Origin: Eubacteriales bacterium
Lineage (GTDB): Bacteria > Bacillota > Clostridia > Oscillospirales > CAG-272
Length of the DNA stretch: 64,000 nucleotides
Assembly (NCBI GenBank): GCA_045636605.1
Contig: JAZTXV010000017.1
Location: 62,614-126,613 of the forward strand
Direction: 5' to 3'
The notes below the pieces were generated by a model that did not search any database, had not been told where the DNA came from, and was given only the letters and a program-made list of their open reading frames with translations. Shown here one piece after another: positions 266-34,586 of the stretch. The position numbers and the translations under genes were made by a program. Within the stretch, counting starts at the first letter, position 1. Each line of letters begins with the position of its first letter.

Positions 266-1639
266 ATGGTACATCAATACAAATTAGGCGGATACAATAT
301 CGTTCTTGACGTATGCTCCGGAGGCTTGCACGTTGTTGATGACGTTGCGTATGATATAATCGAGCTTTTTGAGAGCAAAGCAAGGGACGAAATAATAAAT
401 ATAATGTGTGAGCGCCACGCCGTTACACAGGATGAGGCGAGTGAATGCTACGAGCAGGTGCTTTCCCTTAAAAACAGCGGAAAGCTATTCACTCCCGACA
501 CCTTTGAGACAATGGCGGACACGTTGAAGAAAAAGACGGCGGGAGTAATCAAGGCGCTTTGCCTTCACGTTGCGCACACCTGCAATCTGAATTGCTCATA
601 TTGCTTTGCATCGCAGGGCAAATACCACGGAGAAAGGGCAGTTATGTCACTTGAGGTGGGTAAAAGAGCGCTTGATTTTCTGATAGAAAGCTCGGGTACA
701 AGAAGAAACCTCGAGGTTGACTTCTTCGGCGGCGAGCCACTTATGAATTTTGAAATGATAAAGGAGCTCGTGGCATACGCAAGAGAGCAGGAAAAGAAAT
801 TCAACAAGAATTTTCGCTTTACTCTGACCACGAACGGACTGTTGATAGATGATGACGTAATCGAGTTCTGCAACAAGGAAATGAGCAACGTTGTTTTGTC
901 GCTTGACGGCAGAAAAAGCGTACACGACAAATACAGGGTTGACTATGCGGGCAACGGAAGCTGGGAGAGAATTGTACCCAAGTTCCAAAGGCTCGTTGAG
1001 GCGAGAGGTGGCAAAAACTACTATATGAGAGGCACCTTCACTCACTCAAATCCCGATTTCCTTGAGGACATCAAGGTGATGCTCGACCTCGGCTTTACCG
1101 AGCTTAGCATGGAGCCGGTTGTTTGCGCAAAGGGCGATAGCGAGGAGCTGACGGAGCAGGATTTTCCGATAGTTTGCAAGCAATATGAGGACCTTGCCAC
1201 ACTTATGAGAGAAAGACGTGATGCGGGCAACGGCTTTACCTTTTATCACTATATGATTGACCTGAAGGGTGGCCCCTGTATCTATAAAAGAATATCCGGC
1301 TGTGGCTCGGGAACGGAATATATGGCGGTCACGCCGTGGGGAGATTTGTACCCCTGCCACCAATTCGTCGGAGAGGAGCGCTACAAGCTCGGCGACATCT
1401 ATAACGGAGTTACAAACAAGATAGCTCAGGACGAATTTGCGTCGTGTAACGTTTATGCACGTCCCGATTGTGCAGACTGCTGGGCAAAGCTTTACTGCTC
1501 AGGCGGCTGTGCGGCTAACGCATATCACGCAACGGGTAGCGTAAAGGGGATTTACGAATACGGATGCCGTCTTTTCAGAAAGAGAATGGAATGTGCGCTT
1601 ATGCTTGCAATAGATAAGGCATTGAAGGGAAACGGCTGA
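266..1639 (+). CDS. scfB: SCIFF radical SAM maturase (SPASM-domain, thioether-forming)
   Basis: CNLNCSYC (CX3CX2C) radical-SAM motif plus a C-terminal Cys-rich SPASM region (CGSG...CHQF...CADCWAKLYCSGGC). AGGAG RBS at 256-260. Adjacent to scfA. Confidence 0.9.
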   Translation: MVHQYKLGGYNIVLDVCSGGLHVVDDVAYDIIELFESKARDEIINIMCERHAVTQDEASECYEQVLSLKNSGKLFTPDTFETMADTLKKKTAGVIKALCLHVAHTCNLNCSYCFASQGKYHGERAVMSLEVGKRALDFLIESSGTRRNLEVDFFGGEPLMNFEMIKELVAYAREQEKKFNKNFRFTLTTNGLLIDDDVIEFCNKEMSNVVLSLDGRKSVHDKYRVDYAGNGSWERIVPKFQRLVEARGGKNYYMRGTFTHSNPDFLEDIKVMLDLGFTELSMEPVVCAKGDSEELTEQDFPIVCKQYEDLATLMRERRDAGNGFTFYHYMIDLKGGPCIYKRISGCGSGTEYMAVTPWGDLYPCHQFVGEERYKLGDIYNGVTNKIAQDEFASCNVYARPDCADCWAKLYCSGGCAANAYHATGSVKGIYEYGCRLFRKRMECALMLAIDKALKGNG

Positions 1640-2970
1640 TGAGGCTTTACGAAATAATAGAGCAGTATGCCGACTCTGACTCTGTAAGAGCGCATATGCC
1701 GGGACACAAGGGCAAGGGCGTGCTTTGTGATATGGAAAAATATGACATAACCGAAATTTTTCCGTTCGATTTCGATAAAAGCATCGAGCTTGCAACCGAG
1801 CGCTCAGAGGATATGCTGACCGAAATCTACGGTACAGCAAGAAGCATTTTTTCCACCGAGGGCTCGTCACTTTGCGTTCGTGCGATGCTATATTTGGCTA
1901 TGCTTCATTCGGGCAAGGCGGGTGGCTACATTATGGCATCAAGAAATGCCCATAAGTCACTCATATCTGCGGCGGCATTGCTTGATTTTGACATAAAATG
2001 GCTATATTCCGATGCTGATAAGAGCTATCTGAGCTGCGAAATCACACCCGATTATCTTGAAAAAATGCTTGGAGAGTGTGATAAAAAGCCGTTTTGCGTG
2101 TATATTACAAGCCCCGATTATCTTGGCAGGACAGCAAAAATATCGGCTCTTGCGAGGGTGTGCGAGGAACACGGAACGCTTCTTGTGGTCGATAACGCAC
2201 ACGGAGCGTATTTGAAATTCCTGGAGAATGACACACACCCAATCACTCAAGGGGCGCATTTGTGCTGTGACAGCGCCCACAAGACTCTGCCTGCGCTCAC
2301 GGGCGGAGCATATCTTCACATATCAAAAAAGGTAGAGGAGCTCTCGAAATATGCCACTGATGCCCGTGCGCTTTTCGGTAGCACGTCGCCGTCATATTTG
2401 ATACTTTCCTCGCTTGACAGGCTAAACGATTACCTCAAAAATGAATACAGGGAGCGACTTTTTGCCTTTACCTGCAAAATGAGCGCCCTGAAGGAGCGCC
2501 TTTGCGCCCTTGGCTATGAGGTGCTTGACGGTGAGCCGTTAAAGCTCGTTATAAATGCATCCTCCTACGGCTATTCGGGCAAGCAGATTGCCGATTATCT
2601 TGAAAAAAACGGCATAATCTACGAAATGTGCGATTTGAGCTATGTTGTGCTTATGCTCACACCCGAGAACACCGACGGCGAGCTTGAAAGAATATATTTT
2701 GCGCTATCCAAGCTGCCAAGAGGCGAAAAAGTAGACGAGCATGCGTGCGGAATTTGCGCCCCTGTGCGAGTAATGTCAATAAGGGAGGCGCTGATGTCAC
2801 CTAAAAAAAGAGTACCAGTAAGCGAGGCGATAGGCAAGGTCTGCGCATCAATTTGCACCTTTTGTCCCCCTGCCGTGTCGATTGTGGTGGCAGGCGAGCA
2901 AATTGATTCCTCGGTTGCATCAACACTTGTCCGCTACGGCTTCGAGCAAATCGACGTAATAGACAGATAA
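1639..2970 (+). CDS. PLP-dependent Orn/Lys/Arg decarboxylase family protein
   Basis: N-terminus ...RAHMPGHKGKG and an SAHKTLPALTGG PLP-lysine motif, typical of the major domain of this family. Its start overlaps the scfB stop by 1 nt (TGATG). Confidence 0.8.
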   Translation: MRLYEIIEQYADSDSVRAHMPGHKGKGVLCDMEKYDITEIFPFDFDKSIELATERSEDMLTEIYGTARSIFSTEGSSLCVRAMLYLAMLHSGKAGGYIMASRNAHKSLISAAALLDFDIKWLYSDADKSYLSCEITPDYLEKMLGECDKKPFCVYITSPDYLGRTAKISALARVCEEHGTLLVVDNAHGAYLKFLENDTHPITQGAHLCCDSAHKTLPALTGGAYLHISKKVEELSKYATDARALFGSTSPSYLILSSLDRLNDYLKNEYRERLFAFTCKMSALKERLCALGYEVLDGEPLKLVINASSYGYSGKQIADYLEKNGIIYEMCDLSYVVLMLTPENTDGELERIYFALSKLPRGEKVDEHACGICAPVRVMSIREALMSPKKRVPVSEAIGKVCASICTFCPPAVSIVVAGEQIDSSVASTLVRYGFEQIDVIDR

Positions 2971-2993
2971 AATATACACATTAAAATCAAAAG

Positions 2994-3020
2994 AGCAGGA
3001 CACGTGTCCTGCTCTTTTTG
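2994..3020. terminator. Bidirectional rho-independent terminator
   Basis: 22-nt perfect palindrome gagcaggacacgtgtcctgctc flanked by an A-run and a T-run. It lies between convergent genes. Confidence 0.7.
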
Positions 3021-3124: not shown

Positions 3125-5494
3125 TTATTGATACGGGAAGAAATCTCCGTTTTCAAAGAAGCCCTTGACGGTTGTGTCATTGGCTGTCAGAGTTGCCTCT
3201 CTTGCGTTGCCTGTTGATTGGAATACGCCCTTAATAATAGCGCCCGTATGCAAGGTAAGAGTTCCCTCGCCGTTCCAATCTCCAAGAGCCCAGCGTCCCT
3301 CATAGATATCGCCGTTTGTGTATCTCATCACACCTTGACCGTGGGGGAAATTACGCTTATTTCTTTCTCCCTCGTATGAGCCGCTCATGGTTGTATCGAA
3401 CATAACGTAGGTGCTATCGGAGTCGAGTGCGCCACCGTCATTCTCGGAGTCACACACGGACTCATCCTCGCTTGGAGAGTATGTCGGGCAATCGTCACTT
3501 TCAAATGAATCGTCACCCGTCAACGAATCGCAAGATGGGTAATCGTCATTTGATGAGCATATCGGAGCATCCTCGTCGGGAATTTCGATGCCGTCAAGGC
3601 AGTCGAGGTCGTCAAGTGTCGGAATAGTGCGCTTTCTTGGAAGCGGAGCCCTGTTTATCGGCTCGTCACCCTCGATAAATTCACCGTCAACGAGCTGTCC
3701 GTAGCGAACCCTTTCCATATTTTCAAAGAATGTAACGTTAGAGGAATTGTTGCACGATTGCCAGAAAGCAGAGAAGATTGAGCCGTTAACCCAAAGCACA
3801 CCCTTGCCGTGCCAAGCATCGCCTCTCCATTCGCCACGGTAAGCCTTGCCGTTTGCATAAATCATAATGCCCTTGCCGTGTCTGCTTCCGTTTTTCCAGT
3901 TGCCCGAATATACACTGCCGCTTGCGTATGTCATAATACCCATGCCGTGTAGCTCAAGGCCGCAAATTTCACCCTTATATGTGTCGCCCGAGGGATATTT
4001 TACTCTGCCGATAGCCTTGTCATCCTCAATGAAATTTCCCAAAATAACCGTGCCGTCGTGCAAGGTATATCTGCCTATTCCAAAGGGTACATCATCCTTC
4101 CAAGCTCCCTCGTAAACGTCGCCGTCGGAGCTTATATATCTGCCGTAACCGTTAAAGCAGCCGTCAACGAAATCGCCCTCGTATGACGAGCCGTCGCTCC
4201 AAACGTATTTGCCACTACCGTTCGGCTTTCCATTAACGGAATCGCCCTCGTAGTAGCTGCCATCGTCCCAAACGTATTTGACCTTATCGTTCGGCTCATG
4301 GTCAGACTCCTCATAGTCAGACTCCTCGTAGTCAGACTCCTCATAGTCAGACTCCTCGTAGTCGGAATCCTCGTAGTCGGAATCCTCGTAGTCAAGGTCG
4401 TCATAGCCGTCATTTTCGTCGTCAATGTCACGCTTGCTGTCGTCGCCGTCAAGCTCGCACGCATCAACCTCATCGTCCTCGTCTGCGACAGGTGGCTCCT
4501 GCGGATCTGTGGAGTCCGTTGTGTTACAGCAGCCGCAAACTGTTTCTCCGTTAAGAATTTTATTTAAATTAGATGCAATTATCTCGGCATCACGGGAAAA
4601 ATCTGTCGAATTTGAAGGGTTTACCTCGGCTTCCTCGTCAATTTCCTCAATAAGATTGCCGTTTTCCCAAATGCCTCTTTTTACCTCGCCGCTTGCGAGA
4701 AAAAGCTCGCCGTAGCCGTTAAAGTCGCCGTCAACGAACTCACCGACATATGTGCCGGCAGAGGAAACGCTTCTGCCGGTGCCGTTTGCATAGCCGTTTC
4801 TGAATTCACCCTCGTAGTATGAGCCGTCGTCGAAGGTGATTCGTCCAACGCCGTTGGGAATTCCGCCTTCGTCAGAGTCGCCCTCATATGTAAAGCTTGC
4901 CCTTTCGTGCTCACTTAAGCTATCGCTTGAGTCAATAGACGGACATCCAAAGGCACGAATATCATTGTCAGCACGGCTTGAGCGCTTGTCAAACGGCTCA
5001 CGACAGTGGTCGCCCTCAACGAACTCACCGTTCTTGAAGGTACCCTCAAACCTTTCACCGCTTGGCAAAATAAGTCTGCCTATTCCGTGATATACGCCGC
5101 AGCTGAAGCCACCCTCGTAGGTTGTACCGTCAGGCAAGGAAAGCCTGCCCATTCCGTCAAAGCTTCCTTGAACGAATGCGCCCTCGTAGGCTGTGCCGTC
5201 ACCGAGAGTGAGCCTGCCCATTCCGTCGTAAAGACCGTTAAGGAAGCTTCCCTCATAGTTCACACCCGTTTCAAGAGAGAGCTTGCCAAGACCGTTGAAA
5301 TCGCCGTTGACAAAGTTACCCTCATAGGCAGCGCCCCTGGAAATCGCCAAAACGCCATAGCCGTTAAACTCACCGTTCACAAAGCCACCCTCGTAAACGA
5401 GCTCATTAGGCTTTGTAAAAACGCCTCTGCCCTCGGGAAGATTGTTTTGGTTTACGGCTCCGTCGTAGATTCCGTTTTTAAAATCAAATTTCAT
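3125..5494 (-). CDS. MORN-repeat protein with an acidic DYE(D/E)S linker
   Basis: About 20 YEGxxxxGxxxGxG MORN units in two blocks. I prefer the start at M23 of the track ORF (ATG at 5494, AAAGGA RBS). No signal peptide. Confidence 0.85.
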   Translation of the reverse strand: MKFDFKNGIYDGAVNQNNLPEGRGVFTKPNELVYEGGFVNGEFNGYGVLAISRGAAYEGNFVNGDFNGLGKLSLETGVNYEGSFLNGLYDGMGRLTLGDGTAYEGAFVQGSFDGMGRLSLPDGTTYEGGFSCGVYHGIGRLILPSGERFEGTFKNGEFVEGDHCREPFDKRSSRADNDIRAFGCPSIDSSDSLSEHERASFTYEGDSDEGGIPNGVGRITFDDGSYYEGEFRNGYANGTGRSVSSAGTYVGEFVDGDFNGYGELFLASGEVKRGIWENGNLIEEIDEEAEVNPSNSTDFSRDAEIIASNLNKILNGETVCGCCNTTDSTDPQEPPVADEDDEVDACELDGDDSKRDIDDENDGYDDLDYEDSDYEDSDYEESDYEESDYEESDYEESDHEPNDKVKYVWDDGSYYEGDSVNGKPNGSGKYVWSDGSSYEGDFVDGCFNGYGRYISSDGDVYEGAWKDDVPFGIGRYTLHDGTVILGNFIEDDKAIGRVKYPSGDTYKGEICGLELHGMGIMTYASGSVYSGNWKNGSRHGKGIMIYANGKAYRGEWRGDAWHGKGVLWVNGSIFSAFWQSCNNSSNVTFFENMERVRYGQLVDGEFIEGDEPINRAPLPRKRTIPTLDDLDCLDGIEIPDEDAPICSSNDDYPSCDSLTGDDSFESDDCPTYSPSEDESVCDSENDGGALDSDSTYVMFDTTMSGSYEGERNKRNFPHGQGVMRYTNGDIYEGRWALGDWNGEGTLTLHTGAIIKGVFQSTGNAREATLTANDTTVKGFFENGDFFPYQ
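4301..4405 (-). repeat. In-frame 15-bp tandem repeat, 7 units
   Basis: gtcagactcctc(a/g)ta x4, gtcggaatcctcgta x2 and one degenerate unit. Encodes DYEDSDYEDSDYEESDYEESDYEESDYEESD. Confidence 0.9.
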
Positions 5495-5577
5495 ATATTG
5501 TCCTTTCGTGTGGGGCTGTATCACGGAATACGCCGTGACAGAGCCCCCTGTAAAAAGCAAAATTAAGTTAGCGGCAA

Positions 5578-7779
5578 TTAGTCCTCAGATGGATAGAAGG
5601 CGCCGTAGCGCATAGAGCCACGAACAGATGTGCCACCGTCAATGAGCTCAAGAGAATCGCTATCCTTGAAATCTCTGAACATTCCCGTGTAGGTATGACC
5701 GTCACTTGATATGTAAACGCCCTTTCCAAGCCACTTGCCGTATGACCAGAAGCCGTTATATATATCTCCGCTTGCATAGCGCATCAAGCCCTTGCCGTGA
5801 GGCTGTCCGTAGTTGTTTCTTGCGCCCTCGTATGTGTCCTCGGCGGGTGGGGGCAGAGAGGAGTCGGGAATTTCAATTTCTGCATCATCGTCGGATTCCT
5901 CGTCGCCAAAGCCGCTAAGAATACCGAAGCCGTCATCGTCGTCATCATCGTCATCGGAGAAGAAGCTCATAAAGCCCTTGCCCGATTCCTCCTCGTTACG
6001 CTTAACGGGAGCCTCTGATGAAGCTGCGGTGCCTGATGTGAATACATCGTCATTTGTCTCAACGGGAGTGTTGACGGGCTCGTTCATCACAACATCGTCA
6101 ACGGGTGTGTCGAAAATTTCATCGTCGATCTCCTCGACGGAAATTACGGGAGCCTTTGCGCTCGGAGTCGGACGTGACGGTGCGTGGATTGCACCAGGTC
6201 TTGACATAGGAGTCTTTGTTCCCGTGCTGCCCGCAGGTCTTGCAGGTCTTGTGGGTGCCGCAGGCCTTGTAGGAGCGGTCGGAGCAGGCCTTGAAGAAGC
6301 GCTCGGCCTTGAAACAGAGGGCCTTGCAAATGATGAACCCGAGCTCGAAGCGGATGCTGCGGAGCTTCCTTGGAACTCGCCCTCTATCCATTCGCCCTCT
6401 TGAACCGTACCATCGGCAGATGTTAGCTTGCCGAAGCCGTGATAGTTGTCATTTTTGAACTCGCCCTCGTAAACGTCGCCGTCTGCATATACACGTATGC
6501 CGTGACCGTTGAAGTCGCCGTCAACGAATTCGCCCTCGTAGTAGCTGTTTTCGCTCCATACGTACTTACCGAAGCCCTGACGCTTGCCCTCAAAGTATTC
6601 ACCCTCGTAGTAGGAGCCGTCCTCAACCCATACGTATTTACCCTTACCGTGCTGCTTATCGCTTTTCCATTCGCCTATGTAGTAATTTCCGCTTTCCCAA
6701 ACACGCTTACCGTGACCGTTGAAATCGCCGTCAACGAAATCACCCTCGTAGTAGCTGTTCTCGTTCCAAACGTATTTACCCTTACCGCAACGCTTGCCCT
6801 CAACGTAGTCGCCCTCGTAGTAGGAGCCGTCGTCAGCCCAGGTATATCTACCTCTGCCGTGCTGGTTGTCGTCCTTCCATTCGCCGACATAGTAGTTTCC
6901 GCTTTCCCAGACACGCTTACCGAAGCCGTTGAAGTTGCCGTCGGCAAACTCGCCCTCATAGTAGCTGTGCTCATTCCAAGCATAGCAGCCGTGTCCTGTA
7001 CGCTGTCCGTCAACGAAATCACCGTCGTAATAGGAGCCGTCCTCCCAGGTATATGTTCCGCTTCCGTGACGCTTATCATTACGCCACTCACCCTCATAGT
7101 GTGAGCCATCGGGCCACGAATAAACACCGAAGCCCTCGAAGTTACCGTCAACAAACTCACCCTCATATCGCTTTCCGTCGCTCCATTTAAGCACGCCGTA
7201 GCCCTCGGGCCTTCCGTTAGAGCCAACAGGGCCGGTATATGTAGCGCCCGCAAAGGAAATTGTTCTTGACGAGCCTCTTGATGAGTGTCTTGGCGGAGTT
7301 CTCTTTGTCGGTGGCGGAGCAGTCCTTGACGGAACCTTCGCAAAGGAATTTCCGCTCATATCAAATGAGTCCGTTGAGCTGAAATCCTGTGTCCAGTCGT
7401 AGCCGCCATCCTCGGGGACTTCAATCTCGGGCTCGACCAATTCGTCATCGTCGTCATCGTCGTCAAAGTTTTCGACGGTAGTGCCGAAATCGTTCATCCA
7501 ATCGTCGCTTGCGGAGCTGAAATCGTTTGTCCAATCATAGCTCGAGCTTGACGTGCGTGACGAGCCGAACGTATCGTTTGTCCATTCGCCCTCCTGCTCG
7601 GTGCCGTTTGCGAATTTCATTTTGCCGTGGCCGTGTCTTTTTCCGTTTTGCCACTCGCCCTCGTAAACGTCGCCGTTATTCCAATAAAATGTTCCCTTGC
7701 CGTGAGGCTCATCGGCGTCATTAAACTCGCCCATATAGAAGCCGTCGTCGGTTGTGATAGATTTGTTATTCGTTTCCAT
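5578..7779 (-). CDS. MORN-repeat protein with Pro/Ser/Ala-rich and poly-Asp linkers
   Basis: Many YEGE(F/W)xxGxxxGxG units. AAGGGGA RBS. Starts 20 nt after the upstream paralog's stop. Confidence 0.85.
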   Translation of the reverse strand: METNNKSITTDDGFYMGEFNDADEPHGKGTFYWNNGDVYEGEWQNGKRHGHGKMKFANGTEQEGEWTNDTFGSSRTSSSSYDWTNDFSSASDDWMNDFGTTVENFDDDDDDDELVEPEIEVPEDGGYDWTQDFSSTDSFDMSGNSFAKVPSRTAPPPTKRTPPRHSSRGSSRTISFAGATYTGPVGSNGRPEGYGVLKWSDGKRYEGEFVDGNFEGFGVYSWPDGSHYEGEWRNDKRHGSGTYTWEDGSYYDGDFVDGQRTGHGCYAWNEHSYYEGEFADGNFNGFGKRVWESGNYYVGEWKDDNQHGRGRYTWADDGSYYEGDYVEGKRCGKGKYVWNENSYYEGDFVDGDFNGHGKRVWESGNYYIGEWKSDKQHGKGKYVWVEDGSYYEGEYFEGKRQGFGKYVWSENSYYEGEFVDGDFNGHGIRVYADGDVYEGEFKNDNYHGFGKLTSADGTVQEGEWIEGEFQGSSAASASSSGSSFARPSVSRPSASSRPAPTAPTRPAAPTRPARPAGSTGTKTPMSRPGAIHAPSRPTPSAKAPVISVEEIDDEIFDTPVDDVVMNEPVNTPVETNDDVFTSGTAASSEAPVKRNEEESGKGFMSFFSDDDDDDDDGFGILSGFGDEESDDDAEIEIPDSSLPPPAEDTYEGARNNYGQPHGKGLMRYASGDIYNGFWSYGKWLGKGVYISSDGHTYTGMFRDFKDSDSLELIDGGTSVRGSMRYGAFYPSED

Positions 7780-7799
7780 AGCTTTCCCCTTAAATTATC

Positions 7800-9230
7800 T
7801 TAATCGGCACGAAAATCGCCGTCAGTCATCGTTCCGTGTATAGCTCTTCCGTTCAAGAAAAGAGTTACGTTCAAGCTGCGCTTTGTTGACGAGAAGTAGC
7901 CCTTATATACCTTTCCATCGGGCAACGTATATGTGCCCTGCTTGTACCATTCGCCGTAAGCCCAGCCACCGTCATAGGTTGAGCCGTCTGCGTAGAACAT
8001 CTTTCCTCTGCCGTGTGGCTGTCCCTTGAAGTTCTTTTCACCGTCGTAAACGTCGCTTTGCTCGTCGGGAGTAAACTCAAAGCCCGTCATAGAGCCGTCT
8101 GTTTCCCTTCCGCCGATAGTCTTTATAACCATCTCGGACTCTCCGCAGTCGCTCCAATAGCTTGAATAATAGGTAACGCTCTCGCCGTTCTCGGAGGTTG
8201 TATATGTACCCGAGCCACGCCAAGCGCCGTCCTCCCATTCGCCATCAAAGAAATTGCCGTCAGCATATGTGTATTTACCCTTGCCGAAGAAGGTATTTTC
8301 ACGGAAATCACCCTCGTAAACGTCACCGTTTTCCATAGTGAGTGTTCCGTGACCGTTGATTTGGTCGTTTTCGTATTCGCCATCGTAGCTTGAGCCGTCG
8401 GAGAAATTACAGTGCGCCTCTCCTGAGAGCTGACCGTCAACGAATGTGCCCTCGAAGACGTCACCCGAATCCCAGGTCTTTTTACCACGGCCGTTTATAG
8501 CGCCGTTTTCCCAATCACCCTCATAGGTGCATTCGTATTCGTCCCAGCGAATAGAGCCGAAGCCGTGCGGAAGTCCGTCTGAGTTTATCTGTCCCGCATA
8601 GATTCCGCCGTCATATTCGTAATCCTCAACGTCGGAGAGGGAGTCCTCGGAAATCTCCTCAAATTCGTCCTCGTCGTCAACCAAATCGGTTGCCGCATCA
8701 AGAATTTCGTTCTCAAGGTCGGTAAAGTCAAGGCCGTCATCCTCGCCCTCGTCATTATCGGTAACCTCGTTGTACGTGTCGTTGCCCATAGGGAAGTCGT
8801 CAACGTCTGTCGGATTTTCCGCCATTGTTGTTCCGAAATCGTTTGTCCAATCGTAGCCGCTGTCGCCGGAGTCATCGCAATCGTAATCATCGCTTCCGCT
8901 TATCGTGCTATCGTCGCCCTCGTCGTCCTCGTCGTCAAAATTTTCAACGGTCGTGCCGAAATCGTTCATCCAATCGTCGCTCGTGGAGCTGAAATCGCTT
9001 GACCAATCGTTTGAGTTGAACGAGTCGTATGACCATTCGCCCTCCTGCTCGGTGCCGTTTGCGAATTTCATTTTTCCGTGGCCGTGTCTTTTTCCGATTT
9101 GCCACTCGCCCTCATAAACGTCTCCGTTGTTCCAATAAAATGTTCCTGTGCCGTGCGGCTCGTTTGCGTCGTTAAAGTCACCCATGTAGAAGCCGTCGTC
9201 AGTTGTGATGGATTTGTTGCTGCTTGCCAT
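7800..9230 (-). CDS. MORN-repeat protein (paralog, first gene of a three-gene set)
   Basis: MORN units. The N-terminal ~100 aa are nearly identical to the 5578-7779 product. GGGGGA RBS. Confidence 0.85.
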   Translation of the reverse strand: MASSNKSITTDDGFYMGDFNDANEPHGTGTFYWNNGDVYEGEWQIGKRHGHGKMKFANGTEQEGEWSYDSFNSNDWSSDFSSTSDDWMNDFGTTVENFDDEDDEGDDSTISGSDDYDCDDSGDSGYDWTNDFGTTMAENPTDVDDFPMGNDTYNEVTDNDEGEDDGLDFTDLENEILDAATDLVDDEDEFEEISEDSLSDVEDYEYDGGIYAGQINSDGLPHGFGSIRWDEYECTYEGDWENGAINGRGKKTWDSGDVFEGTFVDGQLSGEAHCNFSDGSSYDGEYENDQINGHGTLTMENGDVYEGDFRENTFFGKGKYTYADGNFFDGEWEDGAWRGSGTYTTSENGESVTYYSSYWSDCGESEMVIKTIGGRETDGSMTGFEFTPDEQSDVYDGEKNFKGQPHGRGKMFYADGSTYDGGWAYGEWYKQGTYTLPDGKVYKGYFSSTKRSLNVTLFLNGRAIHGTMTDGDFRAD

Positions 9231-9387
9231 ATCCGTTCCCCCTTGAATATTATGTCAAGAACGCATTTGCGTCCAAAATAAATGGTATGTAAGTATTTTA
9301 CTATGTGTTATGCGTGTACAGGTCACAACTTTGTGACAAGGCAGAATATACCGCACCGCACGCACTAAAATATACTTATACATACTA

Positions 9388-9416
9388 ATTATACTACACC
9401 ATATATATTTAGTCAA
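9388..9416 (-). promoter_or_regulatory. Sigma-A type promoter for the MORN gene set
   Basis: On the minus strand: TTGACT, 17-nt spacer, TATAAT. About 150 nt upstream of the 9230 start. Confidence 0.6.
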
Positions 9417-9460: not shown

Positions 9461-9493
9461 CAAAAAAGGACAGAGAGCAAATGCCCTCTGTCC
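9461..9493 (-). terminator. Rho-independent terminator after the EF-G-like gene
   Basis: ggacagag...ctctgtcc stem followed by T6 on the minus strand. Confidence 0.7.
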
Positions 9494-11575: not shown

Positions 11576-11600
11576 TGTTCTTTCCTCTTTTCTTTATTTC

Positions 11601-11638
11601 GGCTCTGCCAAACACGAGATTGATTTCGTGACATAGCC
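11601..11638. repeat. Short copy of the dispersed hairpin element (GGCTCTG...CATAGCC)
   Basis: ggctctgccaaacacgagattgatttcgtgacatagcc. Its ends and the cacgagattga core match the long copy at 17073-17242. Confidence 0.65.
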
Positions 11639-11686
11639 TTTATTTAAAGTAAATCGGGCGCTTGCCCAAATAAACCTCATATCATA

Positions 11687-11715
11687 ATTGTATCACTAAA
11701 AAAATTACATATCAA
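11687..11715 (-). promoter_or_regulatory. Candidate promoter of the EF-G-like gene
   Basis: Minus strand: TTGATA, 17-nt spacer, TACAAT. Confidence 0.45.
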
Positions 11716-11802
11716 CCCTTTTTGTGTAATTTTGTTAAAATATACGAAATTGCACCTGACAATTTGTGCAATTTGCACAACAAAAAAGCGCACCAGCAAA
11801 AG

Positions 11803-11829
11803 AAAAAACCGCCTGCTCGGCGGTTTTTT
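11803..11829. terminator. Bidirectional terminator
   Basis: ccgcc tgctc ggcgg stem flanked by A6 and T6. Confidence 0.7.
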
Positions 11830-11838
11830 GATGTATTG

Positions 11839-14194: not shown

Positions 14195-16183
14195 TTATGC
14201 TACTGTGTATTCACCAAGGCCTTCCTTGCCTGATGTGATTTGTGCAGGGGTAAGAATGCTTTGAAGCTTAACCGTGTAGAGAACTGTGTCGCCTCTTGTT
14301 ACCTTGCTTGCCATAGGAGACGAGATTGCGGAGTCCTCTGCGCCGACATACTCCTTTTGGAGAAGCTGGGCGGTGCTCATATCGTCATCTGTGTAAGCAT
14401 AGCCTGCAAATACAAGCTCAAGCGATTCGTGACCTGTCATACCGTTAACGGACACATTACAATTCTTGTAAGTGATGTCAAGAGCAACCTGAAGCGCACC
14501 CTTTGTTGCGTTCAATGTGCCGTCTGCATTAAATATACCATCAGAGCCAAGGTACTTAGGATTGAAGATTACAACGCCGAAGCCAACGCTCTTGCCTGTG
14601 AGTGTCTCGTAGGTAGCAAGGCTATCGTGGCTTACCTGGTAGCCTGTTGCAATTCCGTTGTTATCGGGGCCTGCTGAGTAGCCTGATGCGGTAAAGATAG
14701 CAGAGTAGGATGTCTTTTGGTTAGTTGCAGCATTCCAAACGCTAAATTCCTTGTCAAAGCCGTTAAAGGAGATAAAGGTTGCGGGCACGCTTGTGGCTGT
14801 TGCGCCATAGTAAATTGTCTTTGTGCCTGCGTTCTCGGGGTTAAAGTCGCTAAACGGAGCAACACTCCAGCCGCTCCAAGCGCTTGCCATAGCATTGGCA
14901 TCTGCCTCGGTTCCCTTTATGATAAGGTCAGCCTTTGAGGGCTTTGATGTAACAGATGTCCAGTTGCTTGAGGAAATAATATACTTAAGTGAGCCGCAAT
15001 CCACGAATGTGTTGTTGCCGGAGCTTACCATTGTGTCGGGGAATACGATGTATTCGAGATTGTTACAGCTATAAAAGGCACCGTCTGTACCGATGTTGGT
15101 AAGCACCTTGTCAGCCGCACCGTTTTCACCCTTGATTGTACCGTTGAGAATTACAAGGCTTGTGATGTCTGTGTCACGAAGGGAGTTGTTTCCTATGTAT
15201 GTGATTGTATCAAACACAAGGTCGCCTATAATATTCGGTCCCCAGAATGCAGAACTGCCAATGTATGTTATTGTACGGGGAAGACCGTTAAATACAACAT
15301 TTTTTGAAACGCTGTTGAATGCGTATTCGGAAATCATCTCGACATTCTCGGGGAGAATGACGCTTGTAAGGTTTTTACAGTTCTGGAACGCACGAGGTCC
15401 AACATTCTTTAGCGGAGCACCCGACATATCAACGCTTGTGATAAGCGTATCACGGAATGCGTTTTCGCCAAGAGATTTGATGTTTGGTAGCTTAATGTCG
15501 CCTGAAATTTTTGTATTGTAGAAGCCTCTGCCGATTTCTTCAATGGATTCAATGCTGTTTATTGTTGCAAGTGACGAGCAGCCGTTGAATGCGGCGTAAA
15601 TTCTCTTGATGTTCTTAGAGAAAAGAACGGTGTGGAGATTAGAGTCATACTCGAAGCAGTATTGACCGAGCTGGACAACATTGGATTTTGACATATCAAC
15701 ACTCAAAAGTGTCTTTGTATTGTAAAACTCCGCATTGGAAAAGCTTATCTCGGCAGTGTAATCCTCGCCTGTTGAAGGGTTGTAGCCACGAGCCTCAATT
15801 TCAACCGTTTCAAGGCACTTGAGCTGTCTGAATACATGGTTTCCGATGCTTTTGACCGTCTTTGGAATGAATACCGATACAACAGGGGAGTTAGAGCCTC
15901 CGTTTGCGCCAAAGGCACTGTCGGCAACTGCGGTTACAACATATTTTTCGTCGGTTGTGCCGTCGCCGTCCTTATCGTAATTAACGATTTCGGGGATAAC
16001 GACATTGGTAAGAGTACCGCTTGTTCTGTTTTCGGTGTTTACCGTTGCAGTTCCGTCAAAGCCGGGATAAGCGTCGGTTTTGGTGAACGAGTAATAAATG
16101 CCGTCAACCTCAACCGCACTTACACTGACAGCCAAAAGGCAAACAGCGAAAAGCACCGTAACAAAAAGTAGTAGCTTTTTCAT
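14195..16183 (-). CDS. Secreted BspA-type leucine-rich-repeat (LRR_5-like) surface protein
   Basis: Signal peptide MKKLLLFVTVLFAVCLLAVSVSA. Repeated I/LPxxVxxIGxxAFxxCxxL units. Confidence 0.8.
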   Translation of the reverse strand: MKKLLLFVTVLFAVCLLAVSVSAVEVDGIYYSFTKTDAYPGFDGTATVNTENRTSGTLTNVVIPEIVNYDKDGDGTTDEKYVVTAVADSAFGANGGSNSPVVSVFIPKTVKSIGNHVFRQLKCLETVEIEARGYNPSTGEDYTAEISFSNAEFYNTKTLLSVDMSKSNVVQLGQYCFEYDSNLHTVLFSKNIKRIYAAFNGCSSLATINSIESIEEIGRGFYNTKISGDIKLPNIKSLGENAFRDTLITSVDMSGAPLKNVGPRAFQNCKNLTSVILPENVEMISEYAFNSVSKNVVFNGLPRTITYIGSSAFWGPNIIGDLVFDTITYIGNNSLRDTDITSLVILNGTIKGENGAADKVLTNIGTDGAFYSCNNLEYIVFPDTMVSSGNNTFVDCGSLKYIISSSNWTSVTSKPSKADLIIKGTEADANAMASAWSGWSVAPFSDFNPENAGTKTIYYGATATSVPATFISFNGFDKEFSVWNAATNQKTSYSAIFTASGYSAGPDNNGIATGYQVSHDSLATYETLTGKSVGFGVVIFNPKYLGSDGIFNADGTLNATKGALQVALDITYKNCNVSVNGMTGHESLELVFAGYAYTDDDMSTAQLLQKEYVGAEDSAISSPMASKVTRGDTVLYTVKLQSILTPAQITSGKEGLGEYTVA

Positions 16184-18489: not shown

Positions 18490-18582
18490 TGGCGAAGGTG
18501 AGTGGATTCGAACCACCGCGCCATACAAGATGACCTACAGCCTTAGCAGGGCCGCCTCTTCGACCGACTTGAGTACACCTTC
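18490..18582 (-). tRNA. tRNA-Ser (anticodon GCU), class II with a long variable arm, CCA encoded
   Basis: The reverse complement folds by hand. Acceptor GAAGGTG/CACCTTC, 3-bp D stem, anticodon stem CGGCC/GGCTG with loop CTGCTAA, and T arm GGTGG TTCGAAT CCACT. 93 nt. Confidence 0.9.
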
Positions 18583-18789: not shown

Positions 18790-18865
18790 GCGCCCCTAGC
18801 TCAGCGGATAGAGTGCCCGGCTACGAACCGGTAGGTCGAGAGTTCGAATCTCCCGGGGCGCGCCA
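18790..18865 (+). tRNA. tRNA-Arg (anticodon ACG), CCA encoded
   Basis: Acceptor GCGCCCC/GGGGCGC, D arm GCTC AGCGGATA GAGT, anticodon loop CTACGAA, and T loop TTCGAAT. 76 nt. Confidence 0.92.
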
Positions 18866-32633: not shown

Positions 32634-34586
32634 TTAATTTTCTGCGTAATAGAAGGTCACGGTCATTGTTTCACTGCCTTGGAACTTTTCGCCCTGTTGG
32701 ATTTCGTAAAGCGCTCCGTTTTCGTCAACGTAGAACTCGCCCTTTGTCACAACAGCTTGAAGCGGATCCTCGAAAATAACACGGTCGTTAATTTCGATAT
32801 AGTTATAGGTGTAGCCGTCGGGAGTTTGCTCGTTATAAATGGTAGCCGTGCCGTCCTCGCCAAAGACAATTGTTGCCTCGGCGGTTGCGTTAAGAGCAGT
32901 CAAGGCGGAGTCGAAATCGGCCTTTGTTTCTGCGTTGCCGATAGCATTTTTCCAATTCTCGTCGGTGATTTGGTCAAGGTAGCCCTGTGATTTGAGATTG
33001 GAGAGCATGCTCCAGAGCCATTCTGTGGAAACGACCTTGGCATCTGTCACAACAACTGTTTTGCCACGGAAATTGTCATTTACGCTTATCCAGAAGGCAA
33101 CCTCGCCGTTTTCGTCATAGTGCCACAGAAGCTCCCTTGAATAGAGATATTCGGAAATCTTTTGCTCGTGTCTTGAATAGAAGAACACCTTGCCTGAAAT
33201 TACGGCATTGAGCGTGTTCCAACGGCTCTCACCGTCCTCGTAGAAAACATATTGAAGCTCACAGCCGTCAAATGCGCTCTCCGATATGCTCGAAACGGTT
33301 GACGGAATAATGATTTCCTCAAGCGAGGTACAGCCATCAAACACCTCGTCACCGATTGTCTTAACGCCCTTAAGAGATATTTCGCAAAGTGCGGAGCAGC
33401 CCTTTAGCGCACCTGCGTCAAGCGCGATAACAGATGACGGAAGGGTGAGGGTTTGAATATCCGTGCCTGCAAGCGCAGTGCCGATTGACACAATGCCCTC
33501 GGGGACAACAACGCTTTGCTGCACGCTTAGCACGCTATGAATTGCTTTAGCGGTAAGGTCATAAAGAATACCGTTTGCAAACGAATATTTTTCGCTGTCG
33601 CTCGGGAGCGTAAGGGTGCTTGGCGTACCGTCAAATGCGCCCATCGCAATTACGGTGTCCTTGCCTAAAATTACAACCTCGTCAACATTTTCGCCAACAA
33701 ATGTGTCTTGCGGAATTGCTATAATGGAGCTTGGAAGTGTAAGAGTGCCAATTGTGCCGTTGCCCGATACGAGCTCTCGCTTTATTTGTGTAACGGGCTT
33801 GAAATTGCACATAGCGGGGATTTCAACGGAGTCTATATCCTCGTCCACCTTTATTTGAATGAGTGTAGTAAAATCCTCATAGTCCTCTGTTTTGAAGAAA
33901 AGTCCGACATAGGTCCATTTTGCGAAAATATCGGTAACTCTGCCGTCAAGCTTGGTGCTTGATGTAAGCGGAGTGGTAAATGCCTCGTCGCAGAAGAGGC
34001 CGTCAAGCTTGTATCCGTTGTGATATAGGTTGTCAAGGCTTGTAAGGTCATTTGGCATAAGACCTGTCTTGATTTCCTCGCCACTAATGAGCGCCTGGCA
34101 TACATATCTGTAAAAATCAATAGCAGATACCTCAAGGGACCAATCAACATTTCCAACCACGATTCCATCAAAGCCGTGAACGGCTATGCTTGAGCTTGAG
34201 TATTGCCAATCAAGAGTGCAGGACGCATAATATTCTGTGAATTTGCCATTTTCGTCCATACCCTCGCTACCCTTGCGGAAGATTGCCTCGGTAAAGGGGA
34301 ACTGCTCACCCGGAGCGACACTGATTCCGCCCTCGGCAAATTCCCAATTAAGGTATTTAATTCCTGCTACCTCGGGTGCGGTAGGTGCGGTTAGTATGTC
34401 ACCTGCATTACAGGTCATCGAAATTACCTCGTCACCTGTTCCTGTAAAGTAGTGAAAATCAATGAAATAACGGGTTGTTACCTCGCCATCGCCACCGCTC
34501 TTATCACCACCGTTATCACAGCCCGCAAAGCAAAGCAGAGTGGCAAGCGCCAAGGCAAGCGCGATTATTATCTTTGTTATTTTCAT
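32634..34586 (-). CDS. BspA-type LRR lipoprotein
   Basis: Lipobox LLCFAGC|DNG. LTLPSSxIAI...F.GC..L LRR_5-like units. Confidence 0.8.
   Translation of the reverse strand: MKITKIIIALALALATLLCFAGCDNGGDKSGGDGEVTTRYFIDFHYFTGTGDEVISMTCNAGDILTAPTAPEVAGIKYLNWEFAEGGISVAPGEQFPFTEAIFRKGSEGMDENGKFTEYYASCTLDWQYSSSSIAVHGFDGIVVGNVDWSLEVSAIDFYRYVCQALISGEEIKTGLMPNDLTSLDNLYHNGYKLDGLFCDEAFTTPLTSSTKLDGRVTDIFAKWTYVGLFFKTEDYEDFTTLIQIKVDEDIDSVEIPAMCNFKPVTQIKRELVSGNGTIGTLTLPSSIIAIPQDTFVGENVDEVVILGKDTVIAMGAFDGTPSTLTLPSDSEKYSFANGILYDLTAKAIHSVLSVQQSVVVPEGIVSIGTALAGTDIQTLTLPSSVIALDAGALKGCSALCEISLKGVKTIGDEVFDGCTSLEEIIIPSTVSSISESAFDGCELQYVFYEDGESRWNTLNAVISGKVFFYSRHEQKISEYLYSRELLWHYDENGEVAFWISVNDNFRGKTVVVTDAKVVSTEWLWSMLSNLKSQGYLDQITDENWKNAIGNAETKADFDSALTALNATAEATIVFGEDGTATIYNEQTPDGYTYNYIEINDRVIFEDPLQAVVTKGEFYVDENGALYEIQQGEKFQGSETMTVTFYYAEN

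What the first reader, a model, noticed from the sequence alone, without database searches (positions are those of the whole stretch)
3125..9230. Operon of three paralogous cytoplasmic MORN-repeat proteins with shared N- and C-terminal modules
Three consecutive minus-strand genes (476, 733 and about 789 aa) consist almost entirely of MORN units (YEGxxxxGxxxGxG) interrupted by extreme low-complexity linkers. The linkers include poly-D/E, DYEES repeats, and a P/S/A/T-rich segment of about 70 aa.

The first two genes share a nearly identical N-terminal module of about 100 aa (SITTDDGFYMG(D/E)FNDA(N/D)EPHG.GTFYWNNGDVYEGEWQ.GKRHGHGKMKFANGTEQEGEW...DDWMNDFGTTVENFDD).

All three end in the same module of about 85 aa (Y(E/D)G.(R/K)N...(Q/F)PHG.G.M.Y..G..Y.G.W..G.W...G........G...G.F...). 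None has a signal peptide or TM helix.

They are driven by a near-consensus promoter (9388-9416) with a leader of about 150 nt, directly downstream of an EF-G paralog.

Bacterial MORN proteins are essentially uncharacterised. A tandem triplet with a conserved terminal module suggests a dedicated, possibly membrane- or envelope-associated scaffold system.
Basis: partly seen in the sequence, partly recalled or inferred. Interest (0 to 1): 0.55.

Follow-up and report, generated by a model that had tools for sequence, protein, structure and literature searches.

The report
Hypervariable MORN-repeat family with constant tail
Three neighbouring genes of an uncultured herbivore-gut Clostridia bacterium encode very acidic proteins without signal peptides: blocks of MORN beta-hairpin repeats joined by disordered linkers, all ending in the same 85-residue mini-domain. 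Close relatives carry one to six such genes in the same chromosomal slot and exchange the variable parts between strains, but what the proteins do is still unknown.

Summary
Three co-oriented minus-strand genes (476, 733 and 789 aa) lie between a near-consensus sigma-70 promoter and a strong terminator. All three are PF02493 MORN proteins with 26-38% low-complexity linker, net charge -73 to -100, and no signal peptide or TM segment.

The shared C-terminal module is structurally just MORN: 8 strands, pLDDT 96.6, TM 0.83 to T. brucei MORN1. It is nevertheless separately conserved. An HMM built without the window scores it at 84-115 bits, against 49 bits or less for any internal stretch. About 353 other MORN proteins score a median of 36 and a maximum of 62 bits.

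The triplet is not the conserved unit. The same slot (EF-G paralog ... OKR_DC_1/SCIFF maturase) holds 5 genes in two sister lineages, 6 in a more distant one, 1 in another and none in others. Within one species a whole N-terminal "head" is replaced up to the constant tail, and domains are inserted or duplicated.

Best reading: a narrow-clade, fast-diversifying family of cytoplasmic "variable head - tether - constant tail" MORN adaptors. The tail is probably a shared docking or dimerisation module. Function is unproven, and nothing supports membrane association. This is a new variant of a known repeat class, of moderate interest.

The parts
9388..9416 (-). Sigma-70-type promoter TTGACT-17-TATAAT of the MORN operon
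   Evidence: It matches 11 of 12 consensus positions. It is conserved in the L001 and L002 leaders.
9468..9493 (-). Intrinsic terminator of the upstream EF-G paralog. It isolates the MORN unit transcriptionally.
   Evidence: The stem has 11 pairs (7 G-C) and is followed by TTTTTT.
9322..9337 (-). Perfect palindrome GTCACA-N4-TGTGAC in the 5' leader, about +45 to +60 from the start of transcription. It could be an operator or a 6-bp RNA hairpin.
   Evidence: It is unique in the window. The arms are invariant and the spacer varies in L001 and L002. There is no covariation, so DNA and RNA roles cannot be told apart.
7800..9230 (-). Gene A, 476 aa, MORN protein: N-module, acidic tether, 6-unit capped array, constant tail
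   Evidence: ORF. Pfam E = 1.7e-35. AF2 predicts beta domains at aa 5-67, 199-370 and 394-475, with aa 73-195 disordered.
9015..9230 (-). N-module of A (aa 1-72, three MORN units), a B-type module
   Evidence: It is 89% identical in protein to B aa 1-66. The DNA repeat 9013-9240 versus 7562-7789 is 86% identical and includes the RBS. In orthologs this module belongs to the 829/707-aa type, not the 535/518-aa type.
8637..9014 (-). Acidic disordered tether of A (aa 73-198), 39% D+E with no K or R. It carries DW-x-NDF(G)TT motifs.
   Evidence: Composition. pLDDT below 50. Motifs at aa 86 and 127.
8061..8636 (-). Middle capped MORN domain of A (aa 199-390)
   Evidence: pLDDT 82-91. The internal cap at aa 315-387 matches HMM positions 15-83 at 42 bits.
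7803..8057 (-). Constant C-terminal module of A (aa 392-476)
   Evidence: It scores 114.8 bits at full length with an HMM built without the window. AF2 gives pLDDT 96.6 and 8 strands. TM 0.83 to TbMORN1, PDB 6t68.
5578..7779 (-). Gene B, 733 aa: N-module, acidic tether, 12-unit MORN array, basic P/S/A/T linker, acidic linker, constant tail
   Evidence: ORF. Pfam E = 8.7e-83 with 13 matched stretches. Orthologs are L001 829 aa and L002 707 aa.
6370..7254 (-). 12-unit MORN array of B (aa 176-470). It contains a 210-nt (3-unit) higher-order tandem repeat.
   Evidence: Units at a 23-24 aa spacing. TRF finds period 210, 2.3-2.6 copies, 78-81% matches at 6500-7044.
6145..6369 (-). P/S/A/T/R-rich linker of B (aa 471-545)
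   Evidence: 23% S, 20% P, 20% A, 11% R, and no D or E.
5581..5841 (-). Constant C-terminal module of B (aa 647-733)
   Evidence: It scores 99.6 bits at full length with the window-free HMM, while the internal units of B score 29 bits or less.
3125..5494 (-). Gene C, 789 aa: three MORN domains, two acidic linkers (one with the DYEES repeats), constant tail
   Evidence: ORF and RBS. Pfam E = 6e-58. Orthologs are L001 676 aa and L002 460 aa.
4280..4624 (-). Acidic linker of C (aa 291-405), including the 15-nt tandem repeat that encodes (DYEES)n
   Evidence: 39% D+E. TRF finds period 15, 6.3 copies at 4301-4394.
3128..3382 (-). Constant C-terminal module of C (aa 705-789)
   Evidence: It scores 83.8 bits at full length with the window-free HMM. 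The best internal stretch (the capped end at aa 535-607) scores 49 bits.
2989..3018 (.). Bidirectional intrinsic terminator that ends the MORN unit and the convergent OKR_DC_1 gene
   Evidence: The stem has 13 pairs with T-runs on both strands.

Best explanation
**What it is.** The locus encodes members of a small, clade-restricted, rapidly diversifying family of cytoplasmic modular MORN proteins.

**Architecture.** Each protein has three parts:
- a variable 'head' of one to three independently capped arrays of MORN beta-hairpins;
- a flexible tether, which is acidic and disordered here but coiled-coil or S/G-rich in relatives;
- a constant 85-residue tail. The tail is a minimal complete MORN domain: an N-cap unit Y-G--N--G-PHG-G, a unit G-W--G-W-G-G, and a C-cap ending S-NVT...G-M-DG-F.

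**Expression.** The three genes are co-transcribed from one strong housekeeping-type promoter.

**Proposed mechanism.** The tail is the family-defining part. It most likely acts as a common docking or dimerisation module, by analogy with the C-terminal repeats that make MORN1 a tail-to-tail dimer. Paralogs would then pair with each other, or bind one shared partner, while the heads present different protein-binding grooves. The DW-x-NDF motifs in the tether behind the N-module may be short ligands for such grooves.

**Shown versus inferred.**
- Shown: the anatomy, the fold, the separate conservation of the tail, synteny, copy-number variation and head replacement.
- Inferred: cytoplasmic location (from the lack of export signals), tail-mediated pairing, head-ligand binding, and any cellular role.
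For: - **Anatomy and MORN identity:**
- **Tail fold:** the tail folds on its own with pLDDT 96.6. It superposes on MORN1, RSPH1 and MORN4 over all 85 residues.
- **Beads on a string:** full-length A is predicted as three beta domains joined by a disordered tether.
- **The tail is a discrete family marker:**
  - An HMM built without the window scores the tails of A, B and C at 115, 100 and 84 bits, against 49 bits or less internally.
  - In out-of-sample proteins from L084, L088 and L086 the best domain is always at the extreme C-terminus: 56-103 bits, against 22-68 bits for the second best.
  - Among 384 retrieved MORN proteins, 26 carry the tail at 86-126 bits. The other 353 score a median of 36 and a maximum of 62 bits.
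- **Conserved slot, variable content:**
- **Variation within one species:** with flanks 98-99% identical, one head is replaced from the start codon to 163 nt before the stop, a 206-aa domain is inserted, and 4 units are duplicated.
- **No export signals in any family gene, whereas the adjacent LRR_5 gene has a signal peptide:**
- **Precedent for pairing through C-terminal repeats and against lipid binding:** PMC7725318.
Against: - No experiment or co-evolution signal shows that the tails interact.
- Between orthologs the tail is no better conserved than the other folded domains: 43-69% against 40-66%.
- The heads might have no specific ligands, and the variation could be neutral repeat instability.
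- Some of the length variants come from metagenome assemblies, where repeats can be mis-assembled. However, the 919-aa allele is seen in at least 4 independent assemblies.
- Expression has not been shown.
Confidence: 0.45

Rival explanations
1. The proteins are intracellular invader-recognition or decoy proteins of a conflict system. The variable MORN heads sense or soak up phage or mobile-element proteins. The constant tail recruits a shared effector encoded elsewhere, making a 'split' version of the MORN-TIR, MORN-caspase, MORN-kinase and MORN-NACHT fusions.
For: - Many of the best database relatives of the MORN arrays are fused to TIR_2, Peptidase_C14, Pkinase or trypsin domains.
- MORN is listed among the domains associated with bacterial NACHT proteins (bioRxiv 10.1101/2022.07.19.500537).
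- Head replacement at strain level and copy-number turnover next to near-identical flanks are typical of arms-race genes.
- The genes sit in a variable slot that holds unrelated accessory genes in other lineages.
Against: - No effector, NTPase or other defence domain lies in the genes or within 10 kb.
- PADLOC gives no hit.
- The promoter looks constitutive.
- No phage link was found. The IMG/VR scan returned only generic MORN matches.
Confidence: 0.17
2. The proteins are exported without a leader peptide. They act on the cell surface or on host, protozoan or neighbouring cells as adhesin- or effector-like repeat proteins, like the MORN2 expansions of invasive Fusobacterium.
For: - Clustered, locally duplicated and highly diverse MORN-type gene families are proposed adhesion or invasion factors in Fusobacterium (PMC4222103).
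- In L084 and L088 a secreted BspA-type LRR_5 protein lies inside the same slot, and the window has one 5 kb away.
- Hypervariability fits an exposed protein.
Against: - None of about 25 family proteins has a signal peptide, lipobox, TM segment, LPXTG motif or cell-wall-binding domain. By contrast, 87% of Fusobacterium MORN2 proteins have signal peptides.
- Pfam reports PF02493, not PF07661.
- No T7SS or other secretion genes lie in the 64-kb window.
Confidence: 0.1
3. The proteins form a membrane- or envelope-associated scaffold. The MORN arrays would bind the membrane and the triplet would form a dedicated envelope complex.
For: - The historical name and the junctophilin precedent.
- The repeats are highly similar to eukaryotic MORN proteins.
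Against: - Net charge of -73 to -100, with no basic or amphipathic patches or TM anchor.
- MORN1 did not bind liposomes (PMC7725318).
- Junctophilin needs a C-terminal TM helix, which is absent here.
- The triplet is not conserved as a set.
Confidence: 0.08
4. The family is a dispensable, neutrally drifting repeat expansion with no specific function. The tail is conserved only because it is the structural end-cap any MORN array needs.
For: - The family is absent from several close relatives with 86-90% EF-G identity.
- Similar caps also end internal arrays, and a weaker form occurs in unrelated MORN proteins.
- The linkers evolve almost freely, at 12-37% identity.
Against: - All ORFs stay intact across at least 8 independent assemblies, despite repeats and indels.
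- The promoter and a leader palindrome are conserved.
- The tail keeps 16 invariant positions across paralogs that otherwise share almost nothing. It scores twice as high as internal caps.
Confidence: 0.15

Closest known systems
Eukaryotic MORN1 (T. brucei, T. gondii, P. falciparum; PDB 6t68, 6t4r, 6t6q, 6t4d)
   Same: - Same 23-residue beta-hairpin repeat.
- The 85-residue tail superposes with TM 0.77-0.83 and rmsd about 2 A. B matches by sequence at E = 6.6e-34.
- MORN1 is a cytoplasmic all-MORN protein whose C-terminal repeats mediate tail-to-tail dimers.
   Different: - MORN1 is a single uninterrupted 15-repeat array in a eukaryotic cytoskeletal structure.
- Here there are several capped arrays on long disordered or coiled-coil tethers, a discrete family-specific tail, tandem paralogs, and bacterial hosts.
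- Dimerisation has not been tested here.
Fusobacterium / Helicobacter bilis MORN2 (PF07661) gene expansions
   Same: Bacterial, clustered, locally duplicated and highly variable in repeat organisation between strains, with unknown function (PMC4222103).
   Different: - Those proteins are mostly exported (87% have signal peptides), belong to a different Pfam family (PF07661), are scattered in dozens of copies, and are linked to adhesins.
- Here there are no signal peptides, the family is PF02493, all genes sit in a single fixed slot, and they share a constant C-terminal module.
MORN arrays fused to TIR, caspase, kinase, trypsin or NACHT domains in prokaryotic conflict systems
   Same: These are the closest sequence relatives of the repeat arrays outside the family. 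MORN is listed among NACHT-associated domains. Like them, this family diversifies quickly.
   Different: No effector or NTPase domain is present in the proteins or the operon. Instead there is a constant MORN tail.
Junctophilins
   Same: MORN arrays joined by long, low-complexity linkers. The fold matches (9uo9, 7rw4).
   Different: Junctophilins have a backbone alpha-helix and a C-terminal TM anchor and bridge two membranes. None of these features is present here.

Membership tests
MORN repeat proteins (Pfam PF02493) | Match to the PF02493 profile above the gathering score (22.5 bits) | tested here: met
   A, B and C score 119.1, 267.8 and 189.8 bits.
MORN repeat proteins (Pfam PF02493) | Periodicity of 23 residues with the Y-x-G-x-W-x-x-G-x-x-x-G-x-G signature | tested here: met
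   Motif starts are spaced 23-24 aa apart in all arrays. This is the same consensus as quoted in PMC7725318.
MORN repeat proteins (Pfam PF02493) | Antiparallel beta-hairpin array fold | tested here: met
   AF2 models the tail as 8 strands at pLDDT 96.6. All top Foldseek PDB hits are MORN proteins, with TM 0.75-0.83. The folded domains of full-length A are all-beta. These are predictions, not solved structures.
MORN1-type tail-to-tail dimers | Homodimerisation through the last C-terminal repeats | not testable with these tools
   Only monomer prediction was available. The precedent comes from PMC7725318.
Fusobacterium-type MORN2 family (PF07661) | Match to PF07661 | tested here: not met
   The Pfam scan at E <= 0.01 returns only PF02493.
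Fusobacterium-type MORN2 family (PF07661) | N-terminal signal peptide (87% of members) | tested here: not met
   No hydrophobic N-terminus occurs in any family protein. The maximum KD19 is 0.9 or less.
Fusobacterium-type MORN2 family (PF07661) | Genomic clustering with local duplication and strain variability | tested here: met
   There are tandem arrays of 1-6 genes, the N-module is duplicated between A and B, and heads and domains vary between strains.
Prokaryotic MORN-effector conflict proteins (TIR, caspase, kinase, NACHT fusions) | Effector or STAND NTPase domain in the same protein or operon | tested here: not met
   Pfam finds only MORN. PADLOC has no hit. The neighbours are EF-G, OKR_DC_1, the SCIFF maturase and a metallophosphoesterase.
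Junctophilin-like membrane tethers | C-terminal transmembrane anchor | tested here: not met
   No hydrophobic segment is present, and the C-terminus is the MORN tail.
YwqK-family immunity/antitoxin proteins (MORN-variant repeats; recalled from memory) | Match to the NCBIfam or Pfam models for that family, and an adjacent LXG/polymorphic toxin gene | tested here: not met
   NCBIfam gives no hit at E <= 0.01. No toxin gene lies in the locus.

The most novel reading that the evidence does not exclude
The family could be a 'split' intracellular recognition system. In this reading, a set of interchangeable, fast-evolving MORN heads serve as sensors or decoys for invader proteins. Each head is tethered to one constant tail that plugs all of them into a single shared partner or into each other. 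That would be a bacterial repeat-based recognition repertoire diversified by head swapping at a fixed locus rather than by fusion to an effector.
Probability: 0.12. Interest if true: 0.8.

Novelty: new variant of a known kind. Interest (0 to 1): 0.42.

Why it matters
- Bacterial MORN proteins have no assigned function. [quoted passage not shown] No bacterial MORN structure appeared among the PDB matches.
- This family offers a clean handle on that gap. It has a discrete 85-residue module that is confidently predicted to fold on its own and marks every member. It also has natural 'domain-swap' variants between strains, and a fixed locus that can be followed in gut metagenomes.
- If the tail proves to be a pairing or docking module, it would define a simple head-tether-tail design principle for repeat-protein repertoires in bacteria.
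- If it does not, the family is another lineage-specific repeat expansion in uncultured gut Clostridia.

Tried and rejected
1. **Profile search with the 85-aa tail in the search for homologous proteins.** It returned only 10 short, unrelated MORN fragments and missed even the parent proteins, so it was uninformative. The third search, with a 320-aa member, was again dominated by generic MORN hits.
2. **Exhaustive profile search.** It returned 57,194 hits, almost all to profile positions 2-57, which are generic MORN units. The raw hit count therefore says nothing about family size. Only full-length matches at a C-terminus were used.
3. **The search for related loci with the 13-sequence tail alignment.** The JGI metagenome and IMG/VR scans with the A-type tail found only generic MORN matches.
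4. **Exact look-up of the window's own protein A.** It found no contig.
5. **Riboswitch or known RNA in the 150-nt leader.** Rfam finds none. The alignment fold shows only an invariant 6-bp hairpin/palindrome without covariation.
6. **Defence, immunity or phage membership.** PADLOC and NCBIfam give nothing. PHROGs gives only phrog_7324, of unknown function.
7. **Recent horizontally acquired island.**
   - The flanks are core genes and are syntenic.
   - GC content is only slightly raised (0.49-0.55 against 0.42-0.51), as expected for Gly/Asp/Glu-rich coding sequence.
   - No mobility genes are present.
8. **Internal promoters and terminators.** The candidate sites inside the coding regions occur at about the rate expected from shuffled sequence and were ignored.

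Full report
**1. The observation**

The region contains exactly the three minus-strand ORFs described:
- A: 7800-9230, 476 aa.
- B: 5578-7779, 733 aa.
- C: 3125-5494, 789 aa, counted from an ATG preceded by AAAGGA. The ORF runs on to a TTG at 5560.

The transcription unit is well bounded:
- The upstream EF-G paralog (Pfam) ends in a strong terminator at 9493..9468.
- A TTGACT-17-TATAAT promoter follows at 9416..9388 (11 of 12 matches), then a leader of about 150 nt and a GGGGG ribosome-binding site.
- The A-B gap is 20 nt and the B-C gap is 83 nt. Neither holds a terminator.
- A 13-bp bidirectional terminator at 2989-3018 closes the unit.

All three proteins are MORN proteins:
- They match Pfam PF02493 far above threshold.
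- Motif mapping shows units at 23-24 aa spacing.

The linkers are as described:
- They are 28-39% D+E.
- One contains a 15-nt x 6.3 tandem repeat encoding DYEES.
- B has a 75-aa S/P/A/T/R stretch.
- They make up 26-38% of each protein, so 'almost entirely MORN' is too strong.

Other features check out:
- Net charges are -87, -73 and -100, and no segment is hydrophobic enough for a signal peptide or TM helix.
- The N-modules of A and B are 89% identical over aa 1-66. The DNA is 86-89% identical, and the duplicated stretch includes the ribosome-binding site.

**2. Is the C-terminal module only more MORN?**

In fold, yes:
- With an 8-sequence alignment AF2 gives 8 beta-strands at pLDDT 96.6.
- The whole 85 residues superpose on T. 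brucei, T. gondii and P. falciparum MORN1, radial-spoke RSPH1/RSP1 and MORN4, with TM 0.75-0.83 and rmsd about 2 A.

In conservation, no:
- Thirteen tails from three genomes share 16 invariant columns.
- An HMM trained only on the two relatives scores the window's tails at 114.8, 99.6 and 83.8 bits over its full length. Every internal stretch scores 7.5-49 bits.
- In proteins from a more distant clade that were not used for training, the best domain is always at the extreme C-terminus: 56-103 bits, against 22-68 bits for the runner-up.
- Among 384 MORN proteins pulled from the large databases, 26 carry the tail at 86-126 bits. The other 353 have a median best-domain score of 36 and a maximum of 62 bits.
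- The exhaustive profile search agrees. There are 57,194 hits, but nearly all match only profile positions 2-57, which are generic units. Full-length matches at a C-terminus occur in only a handful of clusters.

Reading the alignments, the tail is a minimal complete MORN domain built from three elements:
- an N-cap unit, Y-G--N--G-PHG-G, which also opens the internal arrays;
- a unit with a second tryptophan, G-W--G-W-G-G;
- a C-cap, S-NVT...G-M-DG-F.

Weaker copies of that C-cap also close the penultimate arrays of A and C. The proteins are therefore strings of independently capped MORN domains. AF2 of full-length A shows this: beta domains at aa 5-67, 199-370 and 394-475, a disordered tether at 73-195, and a low-confidence hinge at 373-392.

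**3. Context and relatives**

The window comes from an uncultured, fibre-degrading gut Clostridia lineage. It carries GH5, GH9, GH31, GH39 and GH94 genes and BspA-type LRR proteins. Its relatives are MAGs from deer, goat, sheep, buffalo and similar hosts.

The flanks are conserved in relatives: F420-ligase-like, metallophosphoesterase and EF-G paralog on one side, then the slot, then OKR_DC_1, the SCIFF radical-SAM maturase, SCIFF and AlaRS on the other. The content of the slot is not conserved.

| Locus | EF-G identity to window | Slot content |
|---|---|---|
| Window | - | 3 genes: A, B, C |
| L001 (GCA_045588205.1) | 95% | 5 family genes: 745/535/439/829/676 aa |
| L002/L003 | 97% | 5 family genes: 702/518/436/707/460 aa |
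| L084/L088 | 87% | a secreted LRR_5 protein plus 6 family genes, including a 59-aa ORF that is only the C-cap; tethers are coiled-coil or S/G-rich |
| L004 | 90% | 1 gene of 273 aa: ten units plus the cap, no tether |
| L005, L006, L008, L009, L015 | 77-90% | an HTH-like gene or a lipoprotein instead |
| About 70 more distant EF-G loci | 54-61% | no family member |

Orthology:
- B corresponds to the 829/707-aa type.
- C corresponds to the 676/460-aa type.
- A corresponds to the C-terminal half of the 535/518-aa type, but carries a B-type N-module and tether. A is therefore a chimera.
- The 745/702-aa and 439/436-aa types are missing from the window.

Rates of change:
- Folded domains are 40-69% identical between the window and L001, and linkers 12-37%.
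- By comparison, EF-G, the maturase and the ligase are 89-95% identical.

One further member sits at another locus, next to a prophage (L086).

**4. Variation within a species**

Contigs that encode an identical 535-aa protein and have flanks 98-99% identical to L001 differ in the neighbouring genes:
- **First gene.** It is 745 aa in L001 but 919 aa in at least four independent assemblies. The two alleles are unalignable from the start codon to 163 nt before the stop, that is, up to the last two thirds of the tail.
- **Third gene.** It is 439, 645 or 737 aa. The differences are the presence or absence of a whole capped domain of about 206 aa, and a tandem duplication of four units (92 aa).

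All variants remain in frame. Mis-assembly of repeats cannot be fully excluded for single contigs, but the main variants recur in independent assemblies.

**5. Regulation**

The promoter is conserved in L001 and L002. So is a perfect palindrome, GTCACA-N4-TGTGAC, at 9322-9337 in the leader. Its arms are invariant and its spacer varies. It may be an operator or a small RNA hairpin, and the data cannot decide which. Rfam finds nothing in the leader.

**6. How it most likely works**

Shown:
- A head-tether-tail architecture with a constant tail predicted to fold on its own.
- No export signals in any of about 25 members, while the LRR_5 gene in the same slot has a signal peptide.
- Fast turnover of the heads.

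From the literature:
- MORN arrays are protein-protein interaction and dimerisation modules. MORN1 dimerises tail-to-tail through its last repeats and does not bind liposomes (PMC7725318).

Inference:
- The tail is a shared pairing or docking module. It either links the paralogs to each other or links them all to one partner.
- The heads provide diverse binding grooves.
- The DW-x-NDF motifs are conserved in the otherwise free-evolving tether of the B-type N-module. They are candidate short ligands.

I put this at about 0.45.

Rivals:
- A split invader-sensing or decoy system. It is supported by the effector fusions among the nearest relatives, by MORN being listed among NACHT-associated domains, and by the arms-race-like variation. 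It is weakened by the lack of any effector or PADLOC hit.
- Leaderless export, as for Fusobacterium MORN2. This is weakened by the complete absence of signal peptides and secretion genes.
- Neutral repeat drift, which is contradicted by intact ORFs, the conserved promoter and the invariant tail positions.

**7. Comparison with known families, and novelty**

- The proteins are bona fide MORN (PF02493) proteins.
- They are not members of the MORN2, junctophilin, YwqK or effector-fusion groups. Defining features of each were tested and not met.
- I found no description of a MORN family with a constant C-terminal mini-domain, tandem paralogs in a fixed variable slot, and head replacement between strains.
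- All PDB relatives are eukaryotic.
- NCBI names for family members are all 'hypothetical protein [Clostridia bacterium]'.

This is a new variant of a known kind. Interest is moderate: the anatomy is clear and unusual, but the function is unknown and the clade is narrow.

Noticed in passing
window 9322-9337 (also L001 7517-7532, L002 6061-6076): The leader of the MORN operon carries a perfect palindrome, GTCACA-N4-TGTGAC. Its arms are invariant and its spacer varies across three genomes. In L001 and L002, but not in the window, a T-run follows it, so there it could act as a weak attenuator. L088 has only a degenerate version.
   Followed up: partly
window 11576-11838 versus L001 4827-5033, L002 3030-3236 and L088 149-349: Relatives carry a 66-68 aa HTH_3 (XRE-type) gene just upstream of the EF-G paralog. 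The window has no such ORF in the corresponding gap. This protein is a candidate binder of the leader palindrome.
   Followed up: partly
L084 6119-6298, L088 6744-6923, L089 and L090: A conserved 59-aa ORF encodes only the last two thirds of the constant tail, that is, a stand-alone C-cap. It is the first gene of the MORN array in that clade. It may be a remnant of recombination or a competitor or capping subunit.
   Followed up: no
L101 7069-9828 versus L001 7591-9828: Within one species the first family gene has two unalignable alleles of 919 and 745 aa that share only the last 163 nt. The 919-aa allele has a basic, non-MORN insert of about 130 aa in the middle.
   Followed up: partly
window 6500-7044: The 12-unit array of B is built from a 210-nt higher-order repeat of three MORN unit types (F-, W- and Y-type). 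There are 2.3-2.6 copies at 78-81% identity, which shows growth by triplet duplication.
   Followed up: partly
window 14195-16183(-) and 32634-34586(-); L084 2190-5852: BspA-type LRR_5 proteins lie near the locus. In L084 and L088 a 1220-aa LRR_5 protein with a signal peptide sits inside the same slot, between EF-G and the MORN genes.
   Followed up: no
L006 12166-13917, L008 4468-6342, L009 12216-14012, L015 12192-13805: In related genomes without MORN genes, the position directly downstream of the EF-G paralog is occupied by a 537-624 aa lipoprotein (signal peptide plus Cys) of unknown family. The site behaves as a general accessory-gene slot.
   Followed up: no
window 266-1639(+) and 1639-2970(+): These genes encode a SCIFF-type radical-SAM maturase and an OKR_DC_1-family enzyme whose start overlaps the maturase stop. 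Judging from L001, the 48-aa SCIFF peptide gene should lie just beyond the left edge of the window.
   Followed up: no
L086 2066-3658: A 530-aa family member with the constant tail lies at a different locus, between FUR/rubrerythrin genes and an SPP1-like prophage. It comes from the same sample as L003.
   Followed up: no
window 18493-18582(-) and 18790-18862(+): Two divergently oriented tRNA genes are the only Rfam matches in the window.
   Followed up: no
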